Shown here piece after piece: positions 11,649-42,301 of a DNA stretch of 64,000 nucleotides. The stretch is taken from NCBI GenBank assembly GCA_017686895.1, contig GCA_017686895.1_4521.1; one strand, written 5' to 3'. The notes below the pieces were generated by a model. That model saw nothing but the letters and a program-made list of their open reading frames with translations. It did not search any database and was not told the DNA's origin. This DNA is from a phage. Position 1 is the stretch's first letter; each line of letters starts with the position of its first letter. Made by a program: the position numbers and the translations under genes.

Positions 11649-14360
11649 ATGAAAGAATTTTACTTAACGGTTGAACAGATTGGTGATTCAATTTTTGAAC
11701 GTTACATCGATTCTAATGGCCGTGAACGTACTCGTGAAGTAGAATATAAACCATCACTGTTTGCTCATTGTCCAGAAAGTCAGGCTACGAAATATTTCGA
11801 TATCTACGGTAAGCCGTGTACTCGTAAGTTGTTCGCTAATATGCGTGATGCCTCCCAATGGATTAAACGCATGGAAGATATCGGACTTGAAGCACTTGGC
11901 ATGGACGATTTCAAATTGGCGTATTTGTCTGACACTTATAACTATGAAATCAAATACGACCATACAAAAATTCGTGTGGCTAACTTCGACATCGAAGTAA
12001 CATCTCCGGATGGGTTCCCTGAGCCGTCACAAGCAAAACATCCAATTGATGCTATCACCCATTATGACTCAATTGATGACAGGTTCTACGTATTTGATCT
12101 ATTGAATTCTCCATATGGTAATGTAGAAGAATGGTCTATTGAAATCGCTGCTAAGCTTCAAGAACAAGGTGGTGATGAAGTTCCATCTGAAATTATCGAT
12201 AAAATCATTTATATGCCATTCGATAATGAAAAAGAATTGTTGATGGAATATCTCAACTTCTGGCAACAGAAAACTCCTGTCATTTTGACTGGATGGAACG
12301 TTGAGTCATTTGATATTCCATATGTGTATAACCGAATCAAGAATATTTTTGGCGAATCTACTGCGAAACGTTTATCACCACATCGTAAAACTCGTGTTAA
12401 AGTTATCGAAAACATGTATGGTTCTCGTGAAATCATTACATTGTTCGGTATCTCTGTTCTTGATTATATCGACCTTTACAAAAAATTCTCTTTCACAAAC
12501 CAACCGTCGTATTCTCTGGATTACATTTCAGAATTTGAATTGAATGTCGGTAAACTGAAATATGACGGTCCTATTTCTAAACTTCGTGAAAGTAATCACC
12601 AACGATATATTTCTTATAACATTATCGACGTGTATCGTGTATTGCAAATTGATGCTAAACGCCAGTTCATCAACTTGAGTTTGGACATGGGTTATTATGC
12701 TAAGATACAGATTCAATCTGTGTTTAGCCCAATTAAAACATGGGATGCTATTATTTTTAATAGCCTTAAAGAGCAGAACAAGGTGATTCCACAAGGTCGT
12801 TCTCACCCGGTTCAACCTTATCCTGGCGCTTTTGTTAAGGAACCTATTCCAAATCGATACAAATATGTAATGAGTTTCGACCTTACATCTCTGTATCCAA
12901 GTATTATTCGCCAAGTGAATATTAGCCCAGAAACAATAGCAGGAACGTTTAAAGTAGCTCCATTGCATGATTATATTAACGCAATCGCTGAACGTCCTTC
13001 AGATGTGTACAGTTGCTCTCCTAACGGCATGATGTATTATAAAGACCGTGACGGTGTAGTTCCAACCGAAATCACCAAGGTCTTTAATCAACGTAAAGAA
13101 CATAAAGGTTATATGCTTGCTGCTCAACGTAACGGTGAAATAATTAAAGAGGCATTGCATAATCCTAATCTTTCTGTTGATGAACCATTAGATGTTGATT
13201 ATCGTTTCGACTTCACTGACGAGATTAAAGAAAAGATTAAAAAGTTGTCTGCTAAATCTCTTAATGAAATGTTGTTTAGAGCTCAACGTACTGAAGTTGC
13301 AGGTATGACTGCCCAAATTAACCGTAAATTGCTCATCAACTCGCTTTATGGTGCACTTGGCAACGTTTGGTTCCGTTATTACGATTTGCGTAATGCTACT
13401 GCAATCACAACATTTGGTCAAATGGCTTTACAATGGATTGAACGTAAAGTTAATGAATATCTGAATGAAGTTTGTGGTACAGAAGGTGAAGCTTTCGTTC
13501 TTTATGGTGATACAGACTCTATTTACGTATCTGCTGATAAAATTATCGATAAGGTTGGTGAATCTAAATTCCGTGATACCAACCATTGGGTAGACTTCTT
13601 AGATAAGTTCGCACGTGAACGTATGGAACCAGCTATTGATAAAGGTTTCCGTGAAATGTGTGAATACATGAACAATAAACAACACTTAATGTTCATGGAC
13701 CGAGAAGCTATCGCTGGTCCTCCGCTTGGTTCTAAAGGTATTGGTGGATTCTGGACTGGTAAGAAACGTTATGCATTAAACGTGTGGGATATGGAAGGAA
13801 CTAGATACGCTGAGCCTAAACTCAAAATCATGGGTCTAGAGACTCAGAAATCTTCGACCCCTAAAGCAGTACAGAAAGCTCTTAAAGAATGTATTCGTCG
13901 TATGCTTCAAGAAGGTGAAGAATCATTACAAGAATATTTTAAAGAGTTTGAAAAAGAATTCCGTCAATTGAATTATATTAGCATCGCGTCGGTATCTTCT
14001 GCGAATAACATTGCTAAATATGATGTAGGTGGATTCCCTGGTCCTAAATGTCCGTTCCATATTCGTGGAATTCTGACATATAACCGAGCTATCAAAGGTA
14101 ATATTGATGCTCCACAAGTTGTAGAAGGTGAAAAAGTATATGTTCTGCCTTTACGTGAAGGAAACCCATTCGGTGATAAATGTATCGCATGGCCTTCTGG
14201 TACTGAAATCACAGATTTAATTAAAGACGACGTACTTCATTGGATGGACTACACTGTTCTCCTTGAGAAGACATTTATTAAACCACTTGAAGGATTCACA
14301 TCAGCAGCGAAACTCGATTACGAGAAGAAAGCATCTCTGTTCGATATGTTCGATTTTTGA
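11649..14360 (+). CDS. 43: DNA polymerase gp43 (family B)
   Basis: MKEFYLTVEQIGDSIFERYIDSNGRERTREVEY matches T4 gp43; exo motif FDIE and pol motif YGDTDS present; 903 aa, uninterrupted. Confidence 0.95.
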   Translation: MKEFYLTVEQIGDSIFERYIDSNGRERTREVEYKPSLFAHCPESQATKYFDIYGKPCTRKLFANMRDASQWIKRMEDIGLEALGMDDFKLAYLSDTYNYEIKYDHTKIRVANFDIEVTSPDGFPEPSQAKHPIDAITHYDSIDDRFYVFDLLNSPYGNVEEWSIEIAAKLQEQGGDEVPSEIIDKIIYMPFDNEKELLMEYLNFWQQKTPVILTGWNVESFDIPYVYNRIKNIFGESTAKRLSPHRKTRVKVIENMYGSREIITLFGISVLDYIDLYKKFSFTNQPSYSLDYISEFELNVGKLKYDGPISKLRESNHQRYISYNIIDVYRVLQIDAKRQFINLSLDMGYYAKIQIQSVFSPIKTWDAIIFNSLKEQNKVIPQGRSHPVQPYPGAFVKEPIPNRYKYVMSFDLTSLYPSIIRQVNISPETIAGTFKVAPLHDYINAIAERPSDVYSCSPNGMMYYKDRDGVVPTEITKVFNQRKEHKGYMLAAQRNGEIIKEALHNPNLSVDEPLDVDYRFDFTDEIKEKIKKLSAKSLNEMLFRAQRTEVAGMTAQINRKLLINSLYGALGNVWFRYYDLRNATAITTFGQMALQWIERKVNEYLNEVCGTEGEAFVLYGDTDSIYVSADKIIDKVGESKFRDTNHWVDFLDKFARERMEPAIDKGFREMCEYMNNKQHLMFMDREAIAGPPLGSKGIGGFWTGKKRYALNVWDMEGTRYAEPKLKIMGLETQKSSTPKAVQKALKECIRRMLQEGEESLQEYFKEFEKEFRQLNYISIASVSSANNIAKYDVGGFPGPKCPFHIRGILTYNRAIKGNIDAPQVVEGEKVYVLPLREGNPFGDKCIAWPSGTEITDLIKDDVLHWMDYTVLLEKTFIKPLEGFTSAAKLDYEKKASLFDMFDF

Positions 14361-14400
14361 TATAATACCATGGACGGTAAACTAATTAAATGAGAGAAAT

Positions 14401-15036
14401 ATGAAAACTACACCAATCACTATCGCTATTGACGCAATCGTAAAACAAGCTTCTTCTTTGGCTACTATGGCCAAAGTAATTAGTCAAAACCCTGCTCGTT
14501 ATAATGCTATTCTAGAAACTCTTCGACGCCCTGGACTGAGTAATTATGAAAGCCGAGTAATTATTACAGGTGTTGGTAAGAACGCTAATATCGCAACTAA
14601 AGCTTCCGAGACTTTTGCTTCACTAGGTATTCCTAGCATGTATTTGAACACCGGGCATTATTCTCATGGCGACGCAGGGTTTATTGCACCTAATGATGTA
14701 TTAGTTCACATCAGTCGTTCTGGTAAGACTGAAGAAATGATAGGTGTTGCTAAACATCTTCGTATGATTCGTCCTCAGGTTAAACAGATTCTGTTACATT
14801 GTAACCCTGACATTCCGCAAGAATACGAAGCTCTTTTTGATTATACGTTCTGTACAGGCATCGCGGTAGAGGTTGATGAGAATTCTCTGGCTCCGACCAT
14901 GTCCACTACATTGTTGTTAGCGCTTATCGATACGTTTGCTATCAACCTTTCGTCTGAACGTGGATTTACCTCTAATGACTTCCTTAAGTTCCACCCTGGT
15001 GGTGCACTAGGTGCCATGTTACGAGGCGAACAATGA
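14401..15036 (+). CDS. SIS-domain sugar-phosphate isomerase, arabinose-5-phosphate isomerase (KdsD/GutQ)-like
   Basis: Motifs ETFASLGIP, HGDAGF, ISRSGKT resemble KdsD SIS domain; no CBS domains. Confidence 0.7.
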   Translation: MKTTPITIAIDAIVKQASSLATMAKVISQNPARYNAILETLRRPGLSNYESRVIITGVGKNANIATKASETFASLGIPSMYLNTGHYSHGDAGFIAPNDVLVHISRSGKTEEMIGVAKHLRMIRPQVKQILLHCNPDIPQEYEALFDYTFCTGIAVEVDENSLAPTMSTTLLLALIDTFAINLSSERGFTSNDFLKFHPGGALGAMLRGEQ

Positions 15037-15176
15037 AAGCAATAACAATAGGACTTTTACTATTGATGCTTGTCATGACTATCTACTGGAGCTTAACGGC
15101 TCCAGTAATGATTCCGACTCTTATAATCGGATGGATTATGATTGGACTACAAACAAAGTATGAATGCTTTAACTAG
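15033..15176 (+). CDS. small hydrophobic membrane peptide
   Basis: 47-aa ORF hand-translated (MKAITIGLLLLMLVMTIYW...); ATGA overlap with upstream stop; below track cut-off. Confidence 0.25.
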   Translation: MKAITIGLLLLMLVMTIYWSLTAPVMIPTLIIGWIMIGLQTKYECFN

Positions 15177-15217
15177 AATAGTGTACAATACACCTACTTA
15201 CCAATGAGGACCACAAC

Positions 15218-16903
15218 ATGAAAAAAGCTGTTATTCTTGGTGCTGGACTGGCAACTCGTTTGTATCCAATAACGCACCATATTCCTAAGGTGCTTGTTAA
15301 CTATAAACAAGACACTATTCTGAGCAATTTGTATACAATTTATTCTGACCTTGGTGCAGATGAAATTATTGTAGTAGTTCATTCAAAATTTGTTGAAACT
15401 GTTCGAGCTTATTGTGAGCAAGAAGGGTTCAATGTGACTATTCGTACAGTTGATGAAGCGTATGGTTCTGCTTATGCTCTTGCTAAATTATACAAAGATT
15501 TAGATGGCCATAACGTAATTGTTAACTGGTGTGATATTATTCCTGATTTTGGTTCATGGTCTTGGAATGTTAACGCAATCTATGTTAAGGGTGATGAATG
15601 TCGATATAATTTCGATGGTGAAAATATCACTAACGTAGGTTCAACAGGCGGTAATGTTGTAGGAATTTATCAGTTCAAAGACTGGGAATTCTATATGGGT
15701 TCTACTGATGAGGAAATTCATGAATACTGCAAAGGGCGTGATTTCGTAGAATTCCTTTACGGCAGTGCATTCAATAAATCAGAGCTTATGAATCTAATTG
15801 ATTTAGGTGATATGCCTAAACTTGAAAAAGCTCATGAAGTTCGTGAACTTAATCGTAGTTTTAATGCAGTTGAAATTGGTGAAGAAACTGTAACTAAATT
15901 CGCATTAACCGAACAGGGACGAGCTCTTCAGAAAGATGAGATTTCGTGGTATCTTAAAGTGAAATCAGATTCAGTTCCTCAGTTAGTTTCTGTTAATGAA
16001 AATAACTTTGAAATGGAACGCATTAAAGGTAAGCCAGCATTTGAATATATTAAATCCAAATCAAGTCTTGCTCGTCCACAAATTGTTGATGCAATTTTAG
16101 ATGCACTGAAATTCAGCACAGACACTTATTTTGTAAGTCCTGAAACTGTTCGTCGTGATTTCACTAAAGAATTCTATACGAAAGTTATTGATCGTTGTGA
16201 AAGCATTCAACCATTGATTGATTCATTTGGTAAAATCACACATGTGAACTACACTAAGATTGGACGTCTGAAGCCAATGCTGAAACAAGCTTTAGAACAC
16301 CTTATTCGTTATCATAACCGTTCTCAGGGACAGTACTCTGTTATTCATGGTGACCCGAACTTCAGTAATACTATGATTACTGATAACGGCGAAGTCAAGT
16401 TTATCGACCCTCGTGGATATTTTGGCGAAACCAAGATTTACGGGCCAAAATTGTACGATGAAGCTAAAGTGCTTTATGCTGTTTCAGGTTATGATGAATT
16501 CAATGCTAATCCGACCTGGGGACAGTTTACTATTGATGAAACAACTTGTAATGTGACTATTAACATCAATCCATTAATTTACAAATATGGAAAGATGAGT
16601 TCGTTTAACGAGTATCATCATTTGGCGGTGGCAATTATCTGGATTGCATTAGGTGGTTATTTCAAGAATAATCCACTTAAAGCGGTAGCCGCATATTATA
16701 AAGGTATGGAACTTCTGACTAAGCAATTACGCAACATGGGCCGTGTACTTCAAGACGGCTCTATTAGTTATGACGTAGCAGAACCTGTAACGGCTACTCT
16801 GATTACAAAAAATCCTGGTAAATGGGTACTAACTGATAAAGAAACTGGTGTTTCCTATCGTCCAATCGGTGGCGATATCACTCATCAATGGGAACGAATC
16901 TAA
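15218..16903 (+). CDS. bifunctional sugar-1-phosphate nucleotidyltransferase / anomeric sugar kinase-like protein
   Basis: N-term AVILGAGLATRL...PK nucleotidyltransferase signature; C-term HGDPNFSN...IDPRG resembles APH/choline-kinase catalytic loop. Confidence 0.65.
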   Translation: MKKAVILGAGLATRLYPITHHIPKVLVNYKQDTILSNLYTIYSDLGADEIIVVVHSKFVETVRAYCEQEGFNVTIRTVDEAYGSAYALAKLYKDLDGHNVIVNWCDIIPDFGSWSWNVNAIYVKGDECRYNFDGENITNVGSTGGNVVGIYQFKDWEFYMGSTDEEIHEYCKGRDFVEFLYGSAFNKSELMNLIDLGDMPKLEKAHEVRELNRSFNAVEIGEETVTKFALTEQGRALQKDEISWYLKVKSDSVPQLVSVNENNFEMERIKGKPAFEYIKSKSSLARPQIVDAILDALKFSTDTYFVSPETVRRDFTKEFYTKVIDRCESIQPLIDSFGKITHVNYTKIGRLKPMLKQALEHLIRYHNRSQGQYSVIHGDPNFSNTMITDNGEVKFIDPRGYFGETKIYGPKLYDEAKVLYAVSGYDEFNANPTWGQFTIDETTCNVTININPLIYKYGKMSSFNEYHHLAVAIIWIALGGYFKNNPLKAVAAYYKGMELLTKQLRNMGRVLQDGSISYDVAEPVTATLITKNPGKWVLTDKETGVSYRPIGGDITHQWERI

Positions 16904-17289
16904 TGCACCGTGTAGAAAACATGCTTAATCTTTGTTTTGATGTCGATGATTGTATAACAGAGTGGAATAACAATCGTGATTACGTGAACTTCAAACCAGA
17001 CGTCGAAATGGTGTCTGCCATTAATGCCCTGTATGATGCAGGGCATACCATAACGCTTTACACTGCTCGTGGTATGAAGTCAGTAGGTCCTGGTCGTATA
17101 GCAATTGACATTCTCCCAAGTCTGATTCAGAACTTGGCAAACATTGGCTTGAAGTACCATAATTTGCTAACACATAAACCAGTATATGATTGGATTATCG
17201 ACGACAAAGCTATGCGTCCTGACGAATTCAAAGCTCTTATGAATAAAGGCGAATTCGAAACATTTAAATCATATAAACCGAATCTATAA
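16903..17289 (+). CDS. HAD-superfamily phosphatase-like protein
   Basis: FDVDDCIT (DxD motif I), LYTARG, WIIDDK; start taken at ATG overlapping upstream stop. Confidence 0.45.
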   Translation: MHRVENMLNLCFDVDDCITEWNNNRDYVNFKPDVEMVSAINALYDAGHTITLYTARGMKSVGPGRIAIDILPSLIQNLANIGLKYHNLLTHKPVYDWIIDDKAMRPDEFKALMNKGEFETFKSYKPNL

Positions 17290-17335
17290 TAATTTAAGTA
17301 AGACCTGCAAAAACCATCGCATCAATTAACGCGAG

Positions 17336-18505
17336 ATGCAAAAAATGAATACTTTTAAAATCGGAACGAATTTTGATTTAGCTCTTCTTGATAAAATCGT
17401 AGAGCTCAATAAAACCTATCCTAATAGCTTGATAAACGAAGTATATGGCTCTACAAGAGAAATGGCTTTTGTAGCAGCCAGACCTGATTTTAGGCTTCCT
17501 GACGTTGACAAAAAGATGTTAGAAGATTACGTTAAACGTTGTAACGAATTAGGTATTTGCTTTAACTATACACTCAACACGATAAATCCTGGTTCAAAAA
17601 GAGAACTAGTTGAGTGGAAGAAGAAAGCTATTCAGGATTATGTTCAGTATCTTTGGTCAATAGGCGTATGGCGTATTACTATCGCTAACCCTGTTGTTAT
17701 GGAAATTGTTCGTGAAGTCAATAAAGATATTGAGATTGAAGTTTCAACAATTCTACATGTCGATGCGGTAACTCAAATCAAATACTTACATGACCAATAT
17801 AACATCAAAAAGGTCTGTTGCGGAATTCATAAGAACCGTTCAGTTTCTTTCCTGAAGCGTGCAGCAGAGTTTTGCAATAAGAACAATATAATATTTGAAG
17901 TTCTTGTAAATGAGTTCTGTTCTAATGCTGGTAAAGGGTATACAACACATTGTAGTTATCGTGACTCTTGCTATATTTTCCATAGTACTGATGTTACAGC
18001 TGATGATGCTAAATCCTTAAATGGATATCCAATGCAACACTGCATTAAAGCTCGTGATACAGACCCATTTAACTGGTTGAGAACTCGTTTTGTTCGTCCT
18101 CAAGATTTGAAACTTTATAATGATATTGGTATCACTCAATTCAAAGTTTCAGGACGTACAGGTAGCACAGACTACATTTTGAAAGTTCTTGAAGCATACG
18201 CTTCTGAAAAGTTTGAAGGTAATTTGTTAGAACTGTGGAAGCCTTTAGAGACTATTTTCACTCTTGAAAATGAGACTGAGTTTTCACATACAGTAAATAT
18301 TGAAACCTCTTTGTTAGATGGCTTTTTAGAAAAAAGGTGGTTCAGACATCCAGATTTTGATTGTGCTAATGAAATCTGTGGGTCAACGTGTACATATTGT
18401 GAAAGGTATTATAAACGTCAATTATCTAAAAACGGGTTAGCAGAAAACTCCATATCTATTATTGATATAACTAACTCTGATGACGCTTTGAGGTACCCGG
18501 AATGA
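17336..18505 (+). CDS. peptidase-U32-family-like Fe-S protein
   Basis: N-terminal layout and Cys-rich EFCSNAGKGYTTHCSYRDSC segment resemble U32 family; C-terminal CxxxCxxC cluster. Confidence 0.5.
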   Translation: MQKMNTFKIGTNFDLALLDKIVELNKTYPNSLINEVYGSTREMAFVAARPDFRLPDVDKKMLEDYVKRCNELGICFNYTLNTINPGSKRELVEWKKKAIQDYVQYLWSIGVWRITIANPVVMEIVREVNKDIEIEVSTILHVDAVTQIKYLHDQYNIKKVCCGIHKNRSVSFLKRAAEFCNKNNIIFEVLVNEFCSNAGKGYTTHCSYRDSCYIFHSTDVTADDAKSLNGYPMQHCIKARDTDPFNWLRTRFVRPQDLKLYNDIGITQFKVSGRTGSTDYILKVLEAYASEKFEGNLLELWKPLETIFTLENETEFSHTVNIETSLLDGFLEKRWFRHPDFDCANEICGSTCTYCERYYKRQLSKNGLAENSISIIDITNSDDALRYPE

Positions 18506-18741
18506 TTTCTAGAAAAAGTTTTAATTATAAACTTAACGAAGAGATTTTGACTATGAAACTGAACACTAACGAACAAATTCTTAAAAAGGCCCTTATGGGC
18601 CTGTTTGAAACCAAAGCGGCTAAAGTGATTAAAGAACCTGTTCAATTGGAATACTACACTGATGCATTCCTTCATAGTGTTCTTGGAAGTATAGATTCTG
18701 AAGCTTTACGTTATATCAACATTGTCAAGAAATTCAAATAA
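18502..18741 (+). CDS. hypothetical protein
   Basis: 79-aa ORF, ATGA overlap. Confidence 0.3.
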   Translation: MISRKSFNYKLNEEILTMKLNTNEQILKKALMGLFETKAAKVIKEPVQLEYYTDAFLHSVLGSIDSEALRYINIVKKFK

Positions 18742-18764
18742 GCTTTATGAATTGAGTATATAAT
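18741..18764 (+). promoter_or_regulatory. middle-promoter-like element upstream of 42-like gene
   Basis: aGCTTTA box, 11-nt spacer, TATAAT. Confidence 0.35.
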
Positions 18765-18783
18765 AAATTGTATTGAGGTAAAT

Positions 18784-19500
18784 ATGGGAAAACATAACAC
18801 AATGAAATATATCAAAGCCGCAGATTTTCAAACCGCATTTAAAGCAGTCAATCGTGAAATTTTAGAAAACCCCGAATTCGTAACTGATTCTCGTATTGGA
18901 CGTTGTAATGAAATTGGGTCTATGACAGTAGTTGTTGACACTCCATCATCATTCAAAATGACCGACCCACGTATTAACCGCATCTCTTATGAATATGCCG
19001 AAGACTTCTGGAAGTTTATGATTTCTGGTGGTACCAACGCAGAAGAAGCGTTTAAGGCATATCCTAATGTCGCTAAATTTATTTCTAAACCAAAATCAGA
19101 TGTTTTGCCGGCGAACTTCAACACTTTCTATGGTCCTCGCATTGCGGCCCAATTACCAACTCTTCTAAAAGAACTTAAAGAAAAACCTAACTCTCGAAGA
19201 GTTGTGTTCCAAATTCTAGAAAGTTCTGATCAGGCTTTGCTTGATTCGGACGAAACACTTGAATATCCATGTACTGACTCAGTAACTTATTATATTCGTG
19301 ATGGTAAGCTTTATACCCACTGTCATATGCGTTCTCAGAACTGTGCTGTTGTTATGCAGTTGGATTTTTATCTCCAAGGAAAATTACTTCATTATATCGC
19401 TAACGAATGCGGTGTAGAAGTTGGTGATTATACTCATACCATGGTAAGTGCCCATGTGTTTGAACGTGATTTTGATTATGTTAAAGGATTCCTTGACTAA
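18784..19500 (+). CDS. thymidylate-synthase-family pyrimidine hydroxymethylase (gene 42-like dCMP hydroxymethylase)
   Basis: PCTDSV and HCHMRSQN resemble TS-family catalytic Cys and (Q/M)RS motifs; position and dCTPase at 29023 support hmC synthesis; divergent from T4 gp42. Confidence 0.65.
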   Translation: MGKHNTMKYIKAADFQTAFKAVNREILENPEFVTDSRIGRCNEIGSMTVVVDTPSSFKMTDPRINRISYEYAEDFWKFMISGGTNAEEAFKAYPNVAKFISKPKSDVLPANFNTFYGPRIAAQLPTLLKELKEKPNSRRVVFQILESSDQALLDSDETLEYPCTDSVTYYIRDGKLYTHCHMRSQNCAVVMQLDFYLQGKLLHYIANECGVEVGDYTHTMVSAHVFERDFDYVKGFLD

Positions 19501-20399
19501 TGGCTATTTTCCGCGTACCAATCTTGAGTATGCGGTCTTATGAAACTGGACAGTATGCTATCCTTAAGGATGGCAACTTCCAACTTCATTTGCACCGTGC
19601 TAATCCAGGTGATGTGATTACATATCCACGTAATGCATCTGATATTAAAGAATGCGAACGTCTTTTCCCAGAATTTAAGTTTGTTCCATTATGGTATAAA
19701 GATAACGCGTATAACACTCGTAAATATTTCTGGTCTGAAAATGAATTTGTGGTTGATTCATTAATTGCTTATTATGATTGTGATTTTCTAATCACAGATA
19801 TCACCGGATATGACGGCGCTTTTGATGTGGAATTCAATTTCAATATCACTGCAGACCCTAATAAACCACGTTTTTATATTGACGAATTCTTAAAAACTGA
19901 TATGTTGTCGGTTAATCGTTCACTTCAAACTACTGTGTTGAATGAACGTCAAAAAGAAGTGCTGGTTAACGCAGGTGCAGATGGTAATAAGATTATCGTA
20001 ACGCAGAAAGTTATACGTCCTTCCATCATGCAGCGTCTTGTAGGTGATTTGGCTCCTATTCATCTAGATGGTATTTTTCATCCATTTCGAATTAGTGACC
20101 CGTGCTATCGTTTTGAACAAGTGGTTGAATGTGCAATTCAATTAGGCCAACCGCTTTATATAACCGATCCAAATAATAGCTTCGACAGAAATAAGTATCC
20201 TGAAGAAGCATTGATTCGAATTTTTAAACCAACTAAAACTGAGTACTATCAAATTCTTAAAGGACGTCCGAAGATTCAATATTTCGAAAATCCTGAAGAA
20301 GTATTCCATCCAGGTCTTGGTGAGTTCATCTACTTTAATGCTTTAATTTCTTCGCCGTATAATATACCTAAATATGAAGATGTCGTAATCGAGGAATAA
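19500..20399 (+). CDS. hypothetical protein at the T4 beta-gt position
   Basis: 299-aa ORF between 42-like and uvsX; no recognisable motif. Confidence 0.45.
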   Translation: MAIFRVPILSMRSYETGQYAILKDGNFQLHLHRANPGDVITYPRNASDIKECERLFPEFKFVPLWYKDNAYNTRKYFWSENEFVVDSLIAYYDCDFLITDITGYDGAFDVEFNFNITADPNKPRFYIDEFLKTDMLSVNRSLQTTVLNERQKEVLVNAGADGNKIIVTQKVIRPSIMQRLVGDLAPIHLDGIFHPFRISDPCYRFEQVVECAIQLGQPLYITDPNNSFDRNKYPEEALIRIFKPTKTEYYQILKGRPKIQYFENPEEVFHPGLGEFIYFNALISSPYNIPKYEDVVIEE

Positions 20400-20400
20400 A

Positions 20401-20949
20401 ATGGCTAAAATTATTTTAGTAGATGGCCCGGATAATGCTGGTAAAACAACTTTCATTAATGACATAATGGAAATTAGTGAAAGATATGTAAAGATTGATT
20501 TCCCTAAACGAACAGTTGATGGACGTTTCGATGTTAAGTCTCGAAATGAAGTTGGCTGTTTCGAAACTATGTTGAATTATTTAGACCCTACTAAGATTTA
20601 TCTATTAGACCGTGGATATATTAGTAACTGGGTTTATGGACGTATTCGACAAGATGCGGACTCGGTTCTTGACGTTTATGAACAGGATTATGTTCGTCTT
20701 TGCCAAAACCATGATGTGTTCACAATTATTTTAACACGTAACGAAATGACTGAAAGTTTTGAAGACGACCTTATTACTTTGTCTTCATTCGGTTTTAATA
20801 CAGTAATTTCACATTTTGAAGAGTTTGCAATTCATAACGAAATCCAAACGTATCAATTACTTAATCATGATGGTGCTAACAAAGTTATAGGATTTAATGC
20901 AAGCGAACGTAATAATTTGATTACAGAAATCATCAAATGGGCTCGTTAA
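20401..20949 (+). CDS. P-loop nucleoside/nucleotide kinase-like protein
   Basis: Walker A GPDNAGKTT and LDRGY motif resemble thymidylate/dNMP kinase fold. Confidence 0.5.
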   Translation: MAKIILVDGPDNAGKTTFINDIMEISERYVKIDFPKRTVDGRFDVKSRNEVGCFETMLNYLDPTKIYLLDRGYISNWVYGRIRQDADSVLDVYEQDYVRLCQNHDVFTIILTRNEMTESFEDDLITLSSFGFNTVISHFEEFAIHNEIQTYQLLNHDGANKVIGFNASERNNLITEIIKWAR

Positions 20950-21047
20950 GAGCCATTTAAAGTTTTAAATGCTGTATAACCCTTAGTATATAATCATCTT
21001 ATCTTTTAAACATGAGTAAAATATAATGATGCCTATGGAAAAATACA

Positions 21048-22220
21048 ATGTCTGATTTAAAATCTCGTCTGATTAAAGCTTCTACTTCTAAAATGACTGC
21101 AGACTTGACTAAGTCTAAGCTGTTTAATAATCGTGATGAAGTCCCTACTCGTATTCCAATGTTGAATATTGCACTAGGTGGTGCACTGAATGCAGGGTTG
21201 CAATCAGGCTTAACTATTTTTGCTGCTCCTTCTAAACATTTTAAAACGTTGTTTGGGCTGACCATGGTTGCAGCATATATGAAGAAATATAAAGATGCAA
21301 TCTGTTTGTTTTATGACTCAGAATTCGGTGCTTCAGAATCTTACTTCCGTTCGATGGGTGTTGATTTAGACCGTGTAGTTCATACTCCGATTCAATCCGT
21401 CGAACAACTTAAAGTTGATATGACTAATCAGCTTGACGCGATTGAACGCGGCGATAAAGTTATTATCTTTATCGATTCAATCGGTAATACTGCATCTAAG
21501 AAAGAAACCGAAGATGCGTTGAACGAGAAAGTTGTAGGTGATATGTCTCGTGCTAAGGCACTTAAATCTCTTTTCCGTATTGTGACTCCTTATCTGACTA
21601 TTAAAGATATTCCGTGTGTTGCAATTAACCATACTGCAATGGAAATTGGCGGATTGTATCCTAAAGAGATTATGGGCGGTGGTACAGGTATTCTTTATTC
21701 CGCCAACACGGTATTTTTTATCTCTAAACGTCAGGTTAAAGAAGGTACAGAATTGACCGGTTATGACTTCACGTTGAAAGCAGAAAAATCTCGTACAGTT
21801 AAAGAGAAATCTACTTTCCCGATCACGGTTAATTTCGACGGTGGTATCGACCCATTCAGTGGCTTGTTAGAAATGGCAACTGAAATCGGTTTTGTGGTTA
21901 AGCCTAAAGCTGGTTGGTATGCTCGCGAATTCCTTGACGAAGAAACAGGTGAAATGATTCGTGAAGAAAAATCATGGCGTGCTAAAGCTACTGATTGTGT
22001 AGAATTCTGGGGACCTTTGTTTAAACATAAGCCTTTCCGTGACGCAATTGAAACTAAATATAAACTAGGTGCTATCTCTTCTATTAAAGAAGTTGATGAC
22101 GCTGTTAACGACCTTATTAATTGCAAAGCAACAACTAAAGTTCCGGTTAAAACTTCTAATGCTCCGTCTGCAGCAGATATAGAAAACGACCTTGACGAAA
22201 TGGAAGATTTCGATGAATAA
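21048..22220 (+). CDS. uvsX: recombinase UvsX (RecA-like)
   Basis: MSDLKSRLIKASTSKMTADL matches T4 UvsX as recalled; 390 aa. Confidence 0.93.
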   Translation: MSDLKSRLIKASTSKMTADLTKSKLFNNRDEVPTRIPMLNIALGGALNAGLQSGLTIFAAPSKHFKTLFGLTMVAAYMKKYKDAICLFYDSEFGASESYFRSMGVDLDRVVHTPIQSVEQLKVDMTNQLDAIERGDKVIIFIDSIGNTASKKETEDALNEKVVGDMSRAKALKSLFRIVTPYLTIKDIPCVAINHTAMEIGGLYPKEIMGGGTGILYSANTVFFISKRQVKEGTELTGYDFTLKAEKSRTVKEKSTFPITVNFDGGIDPFSGLLEMATEIGFVVKPKAGWYAREFLDEETGEMIREEKSWRAKATDCVEFWGPLFKHKPFRDAIETKYKLGAISSIKEVDDAVNDLINCKATTKVPVKTSNAPSAADIENDLDEMEDFDE

Positions 22221-41200: not shown

Positions 41201-42301
41201 ATGAAAGTTATGTTTATCCCATCTCGTGCAGTCCCATTTAATCCTGACCGTGTACAAGGTGGTCTTGAAGCAGTACATTTAAATGTGTTGAAATATCTTG
41301 TGTCCATCGGTGCTGATATTGATTATATCGGCTTTGATAATGACGTGTTTGGTGATTGGAAAGTTACACACCATCCTGTCGGCCATCTGACTAAATTCAG
41401 TCTAGGTATGAGTTATACTATGGCTCGTAAGATTGTTGAACTAGCCGGCATCCATGAATACGATTTTGTTGTTACTATGGAACCGACTAAACTAACCGTT
41501 CAGGCAATTAAAGACGCAGGTCTCTCTAAAGTTCATAAGAATTTTATGGCAACACCATTTGAACCGGTATCTCGTGGCATTGTTCAAATTTGGGACCAGA
41601 CTATTCAAATTCATAAGAATGGTGGTAAGAGTTATGCTCCTACTAAAGCCTTCCGTGAATTTGAACGCAAATATTGTTATATGACTTCAGGTCTGACTGA
41701 CAAAATTGATTATGATTATTGGCGAGCAAATCCGTTGTTTGAAGCCGAAGATTATCCGGTTATTTGTTTGAATGAGAAACCTGAAGTTCTTCCGGCGACT
41801 GATCTGATTATTAGTGCACAACGTTATGACACTAAAATGCGTCGTACTGATGTTGCTCTTGAAGCGATTAAAGCACTAGGCGAAAATGGTGTAGGATACT
41901 GTCCTAGTAAATGGGCGCCACCGGCTAAGTATCCTGTTATTATTGATGCTCCACATAGTGAAATCATGGAACGTCTTAAAACAGCTAAAGCACTTATCAA
42001 TACGTGTCCTGACACAGGTACGGTAGAGAATAGTTCTATTGAAGCCATCTCTAAAGGTGTCCCTGTAATCCAGTTAGTTTTTAAGGATTATCCTCATGCG
42101 ACATTTGAATACGACCCAGATACTGTGCGTGTAGAAATTGATTCCTCTACTCCTAAGAAAGAAGTAGTTGCGCTTTACACAAAAGCTGTATTAGAATTCA
42201 CTGACACATACGAAGCTCGAGTTAAACGTGCTGAAGCCGTATGGAAGAAGTATAACCGAGATGCAGTTGTTGCGATGTGGGATAAAATCTTCACAGCGTA
42301 A
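41201..42301 (+). CDS. GT-B fold glycosyltransferase (GT4-like), candidate DNA sugar transferase
   Basis: N-term MKVMFIPS...QGGLEAVHLNVLKYL and C-term TGTVENSSIEAISKGVPVI (E-x7-E motif). Confidence 0.55.
   Translation: MKVMFIPSRAVPFNPDRVQGGLEAVHLNVLKYLVSIGADIDYIGFDNDVFGDWKVTHHPVGHLTKFSLGMSYTMARKIVELAGIHEYDFVVTMEPTKLTVQAIKDAGLSKVHKNFMATPFEPVSRGIVQIWDQTIQIHKNGGKSYAPTKAFREFERKYCYMTSGLTDKIDYDYWRANPLFEAEDYPVICLNEKPEVLPATDLIISAQRYDTKMRRTDVALEAIKALGENGVGYCPSKWAPPAKYPVIIDAPHSEIMERLKTAKALINTCPDTGTVENSSIEAISKGVPVIQLVFKDYPHATFEYDPDTVRVEIDSSTPKKEVVALYTKAVLEFTDTYEARVKRAEAVWKKYNRDAVVAMWDKIFTA

What the first reader, a model, noticed from the sequence alone, without database searches (positions are those of the whole stretch)
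19500..20949. Unknown 299-aa protein and an extra P-loop nucleotide kinase where T4 has beta-glucosyltransferase
These two translationally coupled ORFs lie between the 42-like gene and uvsX. The second has a Walker A motif (GPDNAGKTT) and an LDRGY motif like thymidylate/dNMP kinases. A dedicated kinase beside the hydroxymethylase suggests phosphorylation of a modified nucleotide. The 299-aa protein has no recognisable motif and could be a new transferase or pathway component.
Basis: inference. Interest (0 to 1): 0.55.

Follow-up and report, generated by a model that had tools for sequence, protein, structure and literature searches.

The report
Known phage DNA-arabinosylation genes: transferase plus kinase
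The two genes are real, but they are near-identical copies of phage RB69 genes already listed in the published pathway that coats phage DNA cytosines with arabinose sugars; one is a sugar transferase and the other a small nucleotide kinase whose exact job is still untested.

Summary
Both ORFs exist exactly as described (19500-20399, 299 aa; 20401-20949, 182 aa; tightly packed behind the thymidylate-synthase-like gene). The window is a Mosigvirus, 98.3% identical to RB69 over this stretch. The 299-aa protein equals RB69 ORF047+ORF046, which an extra T splits in the reference. It folds with high confidence as a compact GT-B glycosyltransferase. The literature already lists it as putative "arabinosyltransferase 1". 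The 182-aa protein is 181/182 identical to RB69 gp45, a stripped-down thymidylate-kinase-like enzyme. The neighbouring "42-like" gene is not a hydroxymethylase. It is the flavin-dependent 5-hydroxy-dCMP synthase (97% identical to PDB 9iqc; diagnostic D169N). New here: the 299-aa transferase occurs in 349 phage genomes, whereas the second transferase (window 41201-42301) occurs in only 212. Of 53 independent loci with enough flanking DNA, 51 carry the kinase next to the transferase. The kinase lacks the thymine-binding arginine and the basic lid of true thymidylate kinases. So this is a known system. The open points are the kinase's substrate and whether the first arabinose goes onto DNA or onto a free nucleotide. 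Two primary papers could not be read.

The parts
19500..20399 (+). 299-aa GT-B glycosyltransferase; orthologue of RB69 ORF047+ORF046 (gp46:47); predicted base-proximal arabinofuranosyltransferase acting on 5-hydroxycytosine
20401..20949 (+). 182-aa minimal thymidylate-kinase-like nucleotide kinase; orthologue of RB69 gp45
18784..19500 (+). TS-superfamily 5-hydroxy-dCMP synthase (flavin- and O2-dependent), not a hydroxymethylase
   Evidence: 97% identical to PDB 9iqc/9ir2/9iqu. It carries the D169N and N177D signature and keeps the catalytic Cys.
14401..15036 (+). SIS-domain arabinose-5-phosphate isomerase (RB69 gp55-like); supplies Araf5P
   Evidence: Pfam SIS 8e-10. PHROG 5670 'arabinose 5-phosphate isomerase' 2e-116. 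Literature assignment.
15218..16903 (+). Bifunctional sugar kinase / UDP-arabinose pyrophosphorylase (AfhE-like, RB69 gp52:53)
   Evidence: Pfam NTP_transferase at the N-terminus plus weak kinase-family hits at the C-terminus. Literature.
16888..17289 (+). HAD-type phosphatase (AfhF-like, RB69 gp51); converts Araf-1,5-P2 to Araf-1-P
   Evidence: PHROG 1238 at 5e-43. Literature.
17336..18505 (+). Peptidase-U32-family protein (RB69 gp50); role in the pathway unknown
   Evidence: Pfam PF01136 7e-11. Found in 222 phage records, all at 82% identity or more, and not among Acinetobacter phages.
18502..18741 (+). Conserved 79-aa ORF (RB69 ORF049c-like); function unknown
   Evidence: PHROG 8601 at 2e-50. 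Present in several related loci.
41201..42301 (+). Second GT-B glycosyltransferase (366 aa; RB69 ORF003c; crystallised HY126 glycosyltransferase); predicted to add the second arabinose
   Evidence: PDB 9iqz/9ir0 at E 2e-250. 98.9% identical to RB69ORF003c. Found in only 212 records, restricted to Escherichia/Shigella and Acinetobacter phages. Literature.

Best explanation
The two ORFs are the Mosigvirus (RB69 gp46:47 and gp45) components of the published 5-arabinosyl-5-hydroxycytosine DNA hypermodification pathway. Likely mechanism, step by step. (1) The adjacent TS-like enzyme hydroxylates dCMP to 5-hydroxy-dCMP using flavin and O2. This is shown in the literature for 97-99% identical proteins. 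(2) 5-hydroxy-dCMP is phosphorylated to the diphosphate. The T4-gp1-type dNMP kinase can do this (shown in the literature). I infer that the 182-aa TMK-like kinase is a dedicated or auxiliary kinase for this modified deoxypyrimidine monophosphate. Host NDK would then make the triphosphate, and the phage polymerase would incorporate it. (3) The upstream SIS isomerase, the bifunctional kinase/pyrophosphorylase and the HAD phosphatase make UDP-arabinofuranose (shown for HY126 homologues). (4) The 299-aa GT-B enzyme transfers the first, base-proximal arabinofuranose from UDP-Araf to the 5-OH of 5-hydroxycytosine, most likely on DNA after replication by analogy with T4. This step is inferred. (5) The 366-aa GT at 41201-42301 adds the second arabinose (inferred).
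Against: No biochemical test of either protein was found in the papers I could read. Lee et al. saw no arabinosylation of 5hoC-DNA with single purified DLP3 GTs. They state they cannot tell whether the first arabinosylation is on the mononucleotide or on DNA. The gp1-type dNMP kinase already phosphorylates 5-hydroxy-dCMP, so the TMK-like kinase would be redundant. The kinase has neither a P-loop arginine (N12) nor a basic LID, so its activity is not guaranteed. The Thanatos homologue TH1_063 was reported as a UDP-xylose pyrophosphorylase in vitro. Two distant GT-like loci (L051, L054) have no detectable kinase. He et al. 2026 and Mahler et al. 2025 could not be read and may assign these genes differently.
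Confidence: 0.68

Rival explanations
1. Pre-replicative glycosylation. The 299-aa GT arabinosylates the free nucleotide (5-hydroxy-dCMP). The TMK-like kinase is specialised to phosphorylate the bulky arabinosyl-5-hydroxy-dCMP that the gp1-type kinase may not accept. The polymerase would then incorporate an already glycosylated dCTP analogue.
For: The GT-kinase pair is conserved down to 28-38% identity, with overlapping or abutting reading frames. A compact FMN-reductase-like/TS/GT/kinase module occurs in uncultured phages. Purified GTs failed to arabinosylate 5hoC-DNA, and the published pathway explicitly leaves this open. A gp1-type kinase already covers 5-hydroxy-dCMP, which leaves the extra kinase without an obvious unique substrate. 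The kinase has lost the thymine-specific Arg segment and has a short LID, which would leave room near C5. The GT299 family is markedly acidic, with median pI 5.1.
Against: All characterised T-even sugar transfers are post-replicative on DNA (established knowledge; T4 annotation). DLP3 gp76/77 act on DNA. In about a dozen loci the kinase is separated from the GT and coupled to the HAD phosphatase gene instead. T4 alpha-GT is also acidic, at pI 6.1, so charge does not discriminate. The negative in vitro result is 'data not shown' and could be technical.
Confidence: 0.13
2. The 299-aa protein is a UDP-pentose pyrophosphorylase, a sugar-activating enzyme, rather than a transferase, as claimed for its Thanatos homologue TH1_063.
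For: In vitro, TH1_063 with UTP, xylose-1-phosphate and pyrophosphatase gave a UDP-xylose mass peak that was absent from the no-enzyme control. TH1_063 and TH2_066 are true homologues, at 47.5% identity with the same synteny.
Against: The fold is GT-B, not the nucleotidyltransferase fold. The cluster already encodes a bona fide NTP-transferase domain, shown for HY126 AfhE to make UDP-arabinose. The assay had only a no-enzyme control, so a co-purified E. coli pyrophosphorylase is not excluded. The acceptors tested in that study were unhydroxylated C, dCMP and dCTP, which are the wrong substrate.
Confidence: 0.05
3. The 182-aa protein is an ordinary thymidylate kinase that boosts dTTP supply, as most genome annotations say. 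Its position in the cluster is historical accident.
For: It is annotated 'thymidylate kinase' in RefSeq and PHROG 761. It has a TMK fold. Phage TMKs can be dispensable (jumbo phage PCH45).
Against: It does not reach Pfam PF02223 at E 0.1. It lacks the segment with the thymine-O4-binding arginine and the basic LID. The family is tiny and phage-restricted, with 45 clusters at E<1e-10 among 1.84 billion representatives. It co-occurs with the 5hoC cluster in 344 versus 349 genomes and in 51 of 53 informative loci, despite rearrangement of gene order. The phage already has a gp1-type kinase that handles dTMP.
Confidence: 0.1
4. The 299-aa protein is a UDP-sugar 2-epimerase-like enzyme that remodels the nucleotide sugar rather than transferring it.
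For: Foldseek's lowest E-values include UDP-GlcNAc 2-epimerases, which share the GT-B-like fold. Lee et al. report the same kind of hit for the RL38J1 counterpart.
Confidence: 0.04

Closest known systems
RB69 gp46:47 / Acinetobacter phage DLP3 gp79 / Shewanella phage Thanatos TH1_063 (putative alpha-arabinosyltransferase 1 of the 5-arabinosyl-5-hydroxycytosine pathway; Lee et al., NAR 2026, PMC13326640)
   Same: 99% identical to RB69 ORF047+ORF046 and 46-48% identical to the Acinetobacter and Thanatos proteins. Same position after the 5-hydroxy-dCMP synthase gene. Same top fold matches, 6kih and 3c4q.
   Different: Nothing substantive differs. The window carries the intact 299-aa reading frame that is split in the RB69 reference. 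Activity is untested in every member I could read about.
RB69 gp45 / DLP3 gp78 / RL38J1_214 'nucleotide kinase' (same paper, table only)
   Same: 181/182 identical to RB69 gp45. Same TMK-like fold matches. Same linkage to the GT and TS genes.
   Different: The paper gives no function or discussion. The motif analysis and the quantified linkage here are additions, not contradictions.
T4 alpha- and beta-glucosyltransferases (DNA hmC glucosyltransferases)
   Different: No detectable sequence similarity. The protein is smaller (299 aa versus 351 and 400 aa). The acceptor is 5-hydroxycytosine (ether link directly at C5), not hydroxymethylcytosine. The donor is UDP-arabinofuranose, not UDP-glucose. 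It has not been shown that DNA is the acceptor.
Thymidylate kinases (Pfam PF02223; human TMPK, E. coli Tmk, vaccinia A48R)
   Different: Below the Pfam threshold. About 30 residues shorter. No Arg equivalent to human R76 / E. coli R78 (thymine O4). No P-loop Arg. A short acidic LID (FEDD) replaces the basic LID. An invariant extra motif, G41-R42...R48-N49-E50, lies in a low-confidence loop.
T4 gp1 deoxynucleoside monophosphate kinase (the kinase known to phosphorylate hm-dCMP and, for RB69 gp159, 5-hydroxy-dCMP)
   Same: Possibly the same reaction on a modified dCMP (inference).

Membership tests
GT-B fold glycosyltransferases (GT4-like, retaining) | Two Rossmann-like beta/alpha/beta domains with an interdomain cleft | tested here: met
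GT-B fold glycosyltransferases (GT4-like, retaining) | Sequence membership in a curated GT family model (e.g. Pfam Glycos_transf_1 / Glyco_trans_4) | tested here: not met
   No Pfam family at E<=0.1. No PDB sequence match with a 36-sequence profile. PHROG 3891 has 'unknown function'.
GT-B fold glycosyltransferases (GT4-like, retaining) | C-terminal-domain nucleotide-sugar binding motif (EX7E) and a basic residue for the diphosphate | tested here: inconclusive
   E267-x7-E275 is present in the window protein, but only the second acidic position is conserved (E or D) across the family. Invariant R197, K246 and H270-P271-G272 are candidates. No ligand-bound model was available.
GT-B fold glycosyltransferases (GT4-like, retaining) | Transfer of a sugar from an NDP-sugar to an acceptor | not testable with these tools
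   This needs an enzyme assay. The only assay on a homologue (TH1_063) used unhydroxylated acceptors and found no transfer.
5-hydroxycytosine arabinosylation cluster, first transferase (RB69 gp46:47 type) | Orthology to RB69 gp46:47 | tested here: met
   179/181 and 116/116 identical residues, with a single-base indel in the RB69 reference.
5-hydroxycytosine arabinosylation cluster, first transferase (RB69 gp46:47 type) | Encoded next to a TS homologue carrying the D169N 5-hydroxy-dCMP synthase signature, and with UDP-arabinose synthesis genes | tested here: met
   Asn at ThyA position 169 in the window, Thanatos and metagenomic TS homologues, versus Asp in T4 gp42. SIS, AfhE-like and HAD genes lie upstream.
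5-hydroxycytosine arabinosylation cluster, first transferase (RB69 gp46:47 type) | Present in every phage with the modification, including mono-arabinosylated ones | tested here: met
   349 records versus 212 for the second GT. It is the only GT of the cluster in Thanatos. Mono versus di status of LC53 and Bas46 comes from the literature.
Thymidylate kinase (PF02223) | P-loop GxDxxGK[ST]T, FPxR and DR(Y/H/F) motifs | tested here: met
   G9-P-D11-N-A-G14-K15-T16-T17, F34-P-K-R37 and D70-R71-(G72). hhalign to human TMPK gives 93% probability over residues 3-39.
Thymidylate kinase (PF02223) | Score above the curated Pfam gathering threshold | tested here: not met
   PF02223 is not reported at E<=0.1. 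A PDB profile search gives TMKs only at E 0.006-0.07, over the P-loop region.
Thymidylate kinase (PF02223) | Arginine that hydrogen-bonds thymine O4 (human R76, E. coli R78) and a catalytic arginine in the P-loop or LID | tested here: not met
   The segment is deleted in the alignment. Position 12 is Asn. The LID is nine residues shorter and acidic, with invariant D122-D123. This result depends on the alignment.
Thymidylate kinase (PF02223) | ATP:dTMP phosphotransferase activity | not testable with these tools
   No assay on this protein or its orthologues was found in the readable literature.
T4 gp1-type dNMP kinase | Fold and sequence similarity to T4 gp1 (1dek) | tested here: not met
T4 beta-glucosyltransferase | Sequence homology to T4 b-gt | tested here: not met

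The most novel reading that the evidence does not exclude
The first arabinose is added before replication. The 299-aa GT would glycosylate free 5-hydroxy-dCMP, and the stripped-down TMK-like kinase would be a dedicated arabinosyl-5-hydroxy-dCMP kinase. The polymerase would then incorporate a pre-glycosylated dCTP analogue. That would be the first case of nucleotide-level sugar hypermodification in a T-even-type phage. It would also explain why an extra kinase is co-inherited with the GT in nearly every lineage.
Probability: 0.13. Interest if true: 0.75.

Novelty: already known. Interest (0 to 1): 0.3.

Why it matters
The finding itself adds little. These are 99%-identical orthologues of RB69 genes already placed in the arabinosyl-5-hydroxycytosine pathway published in 2025-2026. 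That modification protects phage DNA from restriction enzymes, the Brig1 glycosylase and DNA-targeting CRISPR systems. What remains useful is a sharply posed and testable gap. The base-proximal transferase and its kinase partner are the two conserved pathway genes with no biochemical assignment in the papers I could read. The kinase is linked to the transferase in 51 of 53 informative loci, although a gp1-type kinase already handles 5-hydroxy-dCMP. Resolving its substrate would settle whether the first sugar goes onto DNA or onto a nucleotide. That in turn matters for engineering glycosylated DNA and for predicting phage sensitivity to defence systems.

Tried and rejected
(1) Pfam on both proteins gave nothing significant.
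(2) PDB sequence searches were uninformative. The 299-aa profile had no real hit. The kinase profile matched only the P-loop region. A single-sequence phmmer search with the kinase returned noise such as thioredoxin and ABC transporters.
(3) hhalign of the kinase profile against single TMK sequences aligned only the first ~40 residues. A 158-sequence bridging alignment was needed instead.
(4) The sigma-70 promoter and terminator scan of 14300-21200 found fewer sites than shuffled controls (21 versus 26.8; 5 versus 3.8), so it gave no operon boundaries. T4 middle and late promoters are not covered by the tool.
(5) I tried net charge as a discriminator between DNA and nucleotide acceptors. I rejected it because T4 alpha-GT is also acidic.
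(6) I could not obtain He et al. (Nat Chem Biol 2026) or Mahler et al. (Cell Host Microbe 2025) by DOI, PubMed id or term searches. Searching for Afh gene names returned only unrelated acronyms.
(7) The transposon-mutagenesis preprint that mentions Bas46 and LC53 has no gene-level essentiality data for them.
(8) I considered a GT-kinase fusion as a Rosetta-stone link, but none was found. The kinase fusions are to HhH-GPD-like, UDG and TS-like domains, and only in distant relatives.
(9) I considered checking whether some phages lack a gp1-type kinase. I did not pursue it, because expected information was low and it would have needed whole-genome downloads.
Full report
OBSERVATION. The upstream TS-like ORF (18784-19500) ends in a TAA that overlaps the ATG of the 299-aa ORF by one base. 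The 299-aa ORF ends at 20399, and the kinase ATG follows at 20401 with a GAGGA seven bases upstream. The Walker A GPDNAGKTT and the LDRGY motif are present. T4 has b-gt (plus segA) between gene 42 and uvsX, so the positional comparison is correct. Neither ORF is a chance reading frame. Homologues occur in 349 and 344 phage genome records. Alignments down to 36-43% identity keep 39 invariant columns each. Both give confident AlphaFold2 models, with pLDDT 94.5 and 86.6.

GENOMIC BACKGROUND. The region is 95-99% identical to about 150 Mosigvirus (RB69-like) genomes. Against the RB69 reference the TS-GT-kinase stretch is 98.3% identical. The kinase is 181/182 identical to RB69p045. The 299-aa protein equals RB69p047 (179/181) joined to RB69p046 (116/116). 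The only indel is one extra T in the RB69 record at window position 20043, which splits the gene there. Lee et al. call this a sequencing error.

THE NEIGHBOUR IS NOT A HYDROXYMETHYLASE. The 238-aa TS-like protein is 97% identical to solved structures 9iqc, 9ir2 and 9iqu. Aligned with E. coli ThyA (sequence confirmed from the genome) and T4 gp42, it keeps the catalytic Cys and has N177D for cytosine specificity. It carries Asn at position 169, where ThyA and gp42 have Asp. That is the published diagnostic of 5-hydroxy-dCMP synthases.

WHICH TRANSFERASE IS FIRST. The window also encodes, at 41201-42301, a 366-aa GT. It matches the crystallised HY126 glycosyltransferase (9iqz/9ir0, E 2e-250) and is 98.9% identical to RB69 ORF003c. 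That GT occurs in only 212 phage records, confined to Escherichia/Shigella Mosigviruses and to Acinetobacter phages. The Acinetobacter phages carry two copies, matching tri-arabinosylating DLP3. The 299-aa family occurs in 349 records across Klebsiella, Serratia, Enterobacter, Proteus, Yersinia, Shewanella and others. Thanatos has TS - GT(300 aa) - kinase(186 aa, 44% identical) - U32 and no 366-type GT in the cluster. Lee et al. describe Thanatos as mono-arabinosylated with a single ara-GT. Serratia/Prodigiosinella phage LC53 is mono-arabinosylated and Bas46 di-arabinosylated. This distribution independently supports the published guess that the 299-aa enzyme adds the base-proximal sugar and the 366-aa enzyme extends it.

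- D11 aligns with the P-loop acid that contacts the 3'-OH.
- F34-P-K-R37 aligns with FPER (R45).
- F54 aligns with the base-stacking Phe72.
- D70-R71 aligns with the DR(Y/H) motif.
- Y79 aligns with the aromatic that excludes a 2'-OH.
Three differences stand out. The segment carrying the thymine-O4-binding Arg (human R76, E. coli R78) is absent. The P-loop Arg is Asn. The LID is nine residues shorter and acidic, with invariant F120-x-D122-D123. I read this as a deoxynucleoside-monophosphate kinase that is no longer thymine-specific. This reading depends on the alignment and is not a demonstration of activity.

LINKAGE. I fetched 58 IMG/VR loci and 3 metagenome loci that encode a relative of the 299-aa protein. 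I scanned them with the window's pathway proteins and with profile HMMs. Of the 55 loci with a strong GT match, 51 have a kinase homologue immediately beside the cluster. Two of the four exceptions are contig ends directly after the GT (L047, L049). The other two (L051, L054) have no detectable kinase within the flanking DNA scanned. Two arrangements occur. One is TS-GT-kinase, often with overlapping frames, as in L002, L004 and Thanatos. The other is HAD-kinase-(U32)-TS-GT (L007-9, L013-17, L022, L027-28). An uncultured clade has a compact module of Flavodoxin_2-like, TS, GT and kinase genes. There the kinase is only 28-30% identical to the window's (E 2e-20). Lee et al. tabulate the same TS-GT-kinase triad in Rhizobium phage RL38J1, whose base-proximal sugar is galactose. 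So the kinase tracks the 5-hydroxycytosine and first-glycosylation part of the pathway, not arabinose synthesis. Distant relatives of the kinase are fused to HhH-GPD-like domains (8 clusters), a UDG domain and a TS-like domain. That again places the family in modified-base metabolism.

MECHANISM AND RIVALS. The best-supported reading follows the published pathway. The TS homologue makes 5-hydroxy-dCMP. Kinases take it to the diphosphate and host NDK to the triphosphate. The polymerase incorporates it. The 299-aa GT adds the first Araf from UDP-Araf, and the 366-aa GT adds the second. The role of the 182-aa kinase as a (redundant or preferred) 5-hydroxy-dCMP kinase is inferred. The main rival is pre-replicative glycosylation of the mononucleotide, followed by a dedicated kinase. 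It fits the tight GT-kinase linkage, the redundancy with gp1 and the negative DNA assay. It runs against the T4 precedent, against the DNA-level activity of DLP3 gp76/77, and against the arrangement in which the kinase is coupled to the HAD gene instead. Protein charge does not discriminate: GT299 has pI 5.1, T4 a-gt 6.1 and b-gt 9.05. The Thanatos claim that the homologue is a UDP-xylose pyrophosphorylase rests on one assay with only a no-enzyme control. It conflicts with the GT-B fold and with the presence of a genuine NTP-transferase in the cluster. An ordinary dTMP kinase is unlikely, given the missing thymine-binding segment and the strict co-inheritance with the cluster.

VERDICT. These are already-described, though biochemically unassigned, parts of a known phage DNA hypermodification system. 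Interest is low to moderate. It lies only in the unresolved substrate of the kinase and the unresolved acceptor of the first transferase.

Noticed in passing
window 17336-18505 (+): A peptidase-U32-family gene sits inside the 5-hydroxycytosine cluster. From my own knowledge, the U32 family includes O2-independent hydroxylases: RlhA for 5-hydroxycytidine in 23S rRNA, TrhP for ho5U in tRNA, and UbiU/V. The TS-type 5-hydroxy-dCMP synthase needs O2. The gene is in 222 phage records, all from Enterobacterales or Shewanella hosts, and is not among the Acinetobacter (strict aerobe) phages that carry the rest of the cluster. It is unusually conserved: 82% identity between E. coli and Shewanella phages, versus 44-47% for the neighbouring GT and kinase. 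Its C-terminus has a CX4CX3CX2C motif. It could be an anaerobic route to 5-hydroxycytosine. Lee et al. list it only as 'sugar or heterocycle reductase'.
   Followed up: partly
window 41201-42301 (+): Second GT-B glycosyltransferase (366 aa). It matches the crystallised 'phage HY126 glycosyltransferase' (PDB 9iqz/9ir0, E 2e-250) and is 98.9% identical to RB69 ORF003c. It has no Pfam hit. It is restricted to 212 Mosigvirus and Acinetobacter phage genomes.
   Followed up: yes
L004 6739-7293; L032-L045 (upstream of the TS gene): In an uncultured T4-like clade a Flavodoxin_2 (NAD(P)H-dependent FMN reductase-like) gene lies directly upstream of TS-GT-kinase, forming a compact four-gene module. It plausibly supplies reduced flavin to the 5-hydroxy-dCMP synthase. 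The window has no such gene in the cluster.
   Followed up: partly
L054 3615-6201; L051 3755-8300: Two distant relatives of the cluster lack a detectable kinase. L054 has TS, a 316-aa GT-like gene and a UDP-galactopyranose mutase (PF03275, 6e-34), which suggests a galactofuranose decoration of 5-hydroxycytosine in an uncultured phage. L051 has TS, a 551-aa extended GT-like protein, SIS and an AfhE-like gene.
   Followed up: partly
proteins P0179, P0180, P0185, P0187, P0190, P0195, P0196, P0245, P0246, P0294 (distant relatives of the 182-aa kinase): The TMK-like kinase domain recurs fused to other domains. Eight clusters have a ~150-aa HhH-GPD-like domain that is mutually homologous; Pfam PF00730 is just at threshold in P0179. 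P0246 has a UDG-superfamily domain (7e-11). P0294 has a TS-like C-terminus (PF00303 2e-4, below threshold). Kinase-glycosylase-fold fusions are unexplained.
   Followed up: partly
window 20043 versus NC_004928.1 (L064 3098-3998): The RB69 reference genome has one extra T that splits the glycosyltransferase into ORF047c and ORF046c. The window, like most Mosigvirus genomes, has the intact 299-aa frame.
   Followed up: yes
L001 (Escherichia phage NRG-P0074) 2733-5504: In this otherwise collinear genome a homing-endonuclease gene is inserted between the AfhE-like gene and the HAD phosphatase gene. The AfhE-like gene is annotated 'dCMP deaminase' and the HAD phosphatase 'phosphoheptose isomerase', both apparent misannotations. 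This is the only record seen that already names the 299-aa protein 'glycosyltransferase'.
   Followed up: no
window 20401-20949, residues 37-45 and about 121-130 of the protein: The two low-confidence stretches of the kinase model (pLDDT below 50 at residues 37-45 and about 61 at 121-130) coincide with family-invariant residues: G41-R42, R48-N49-E50, and F120, D122-D123. This suggests mobile substrate-closing loops that differ from the canonical TMK LID.
   Followed up: partly
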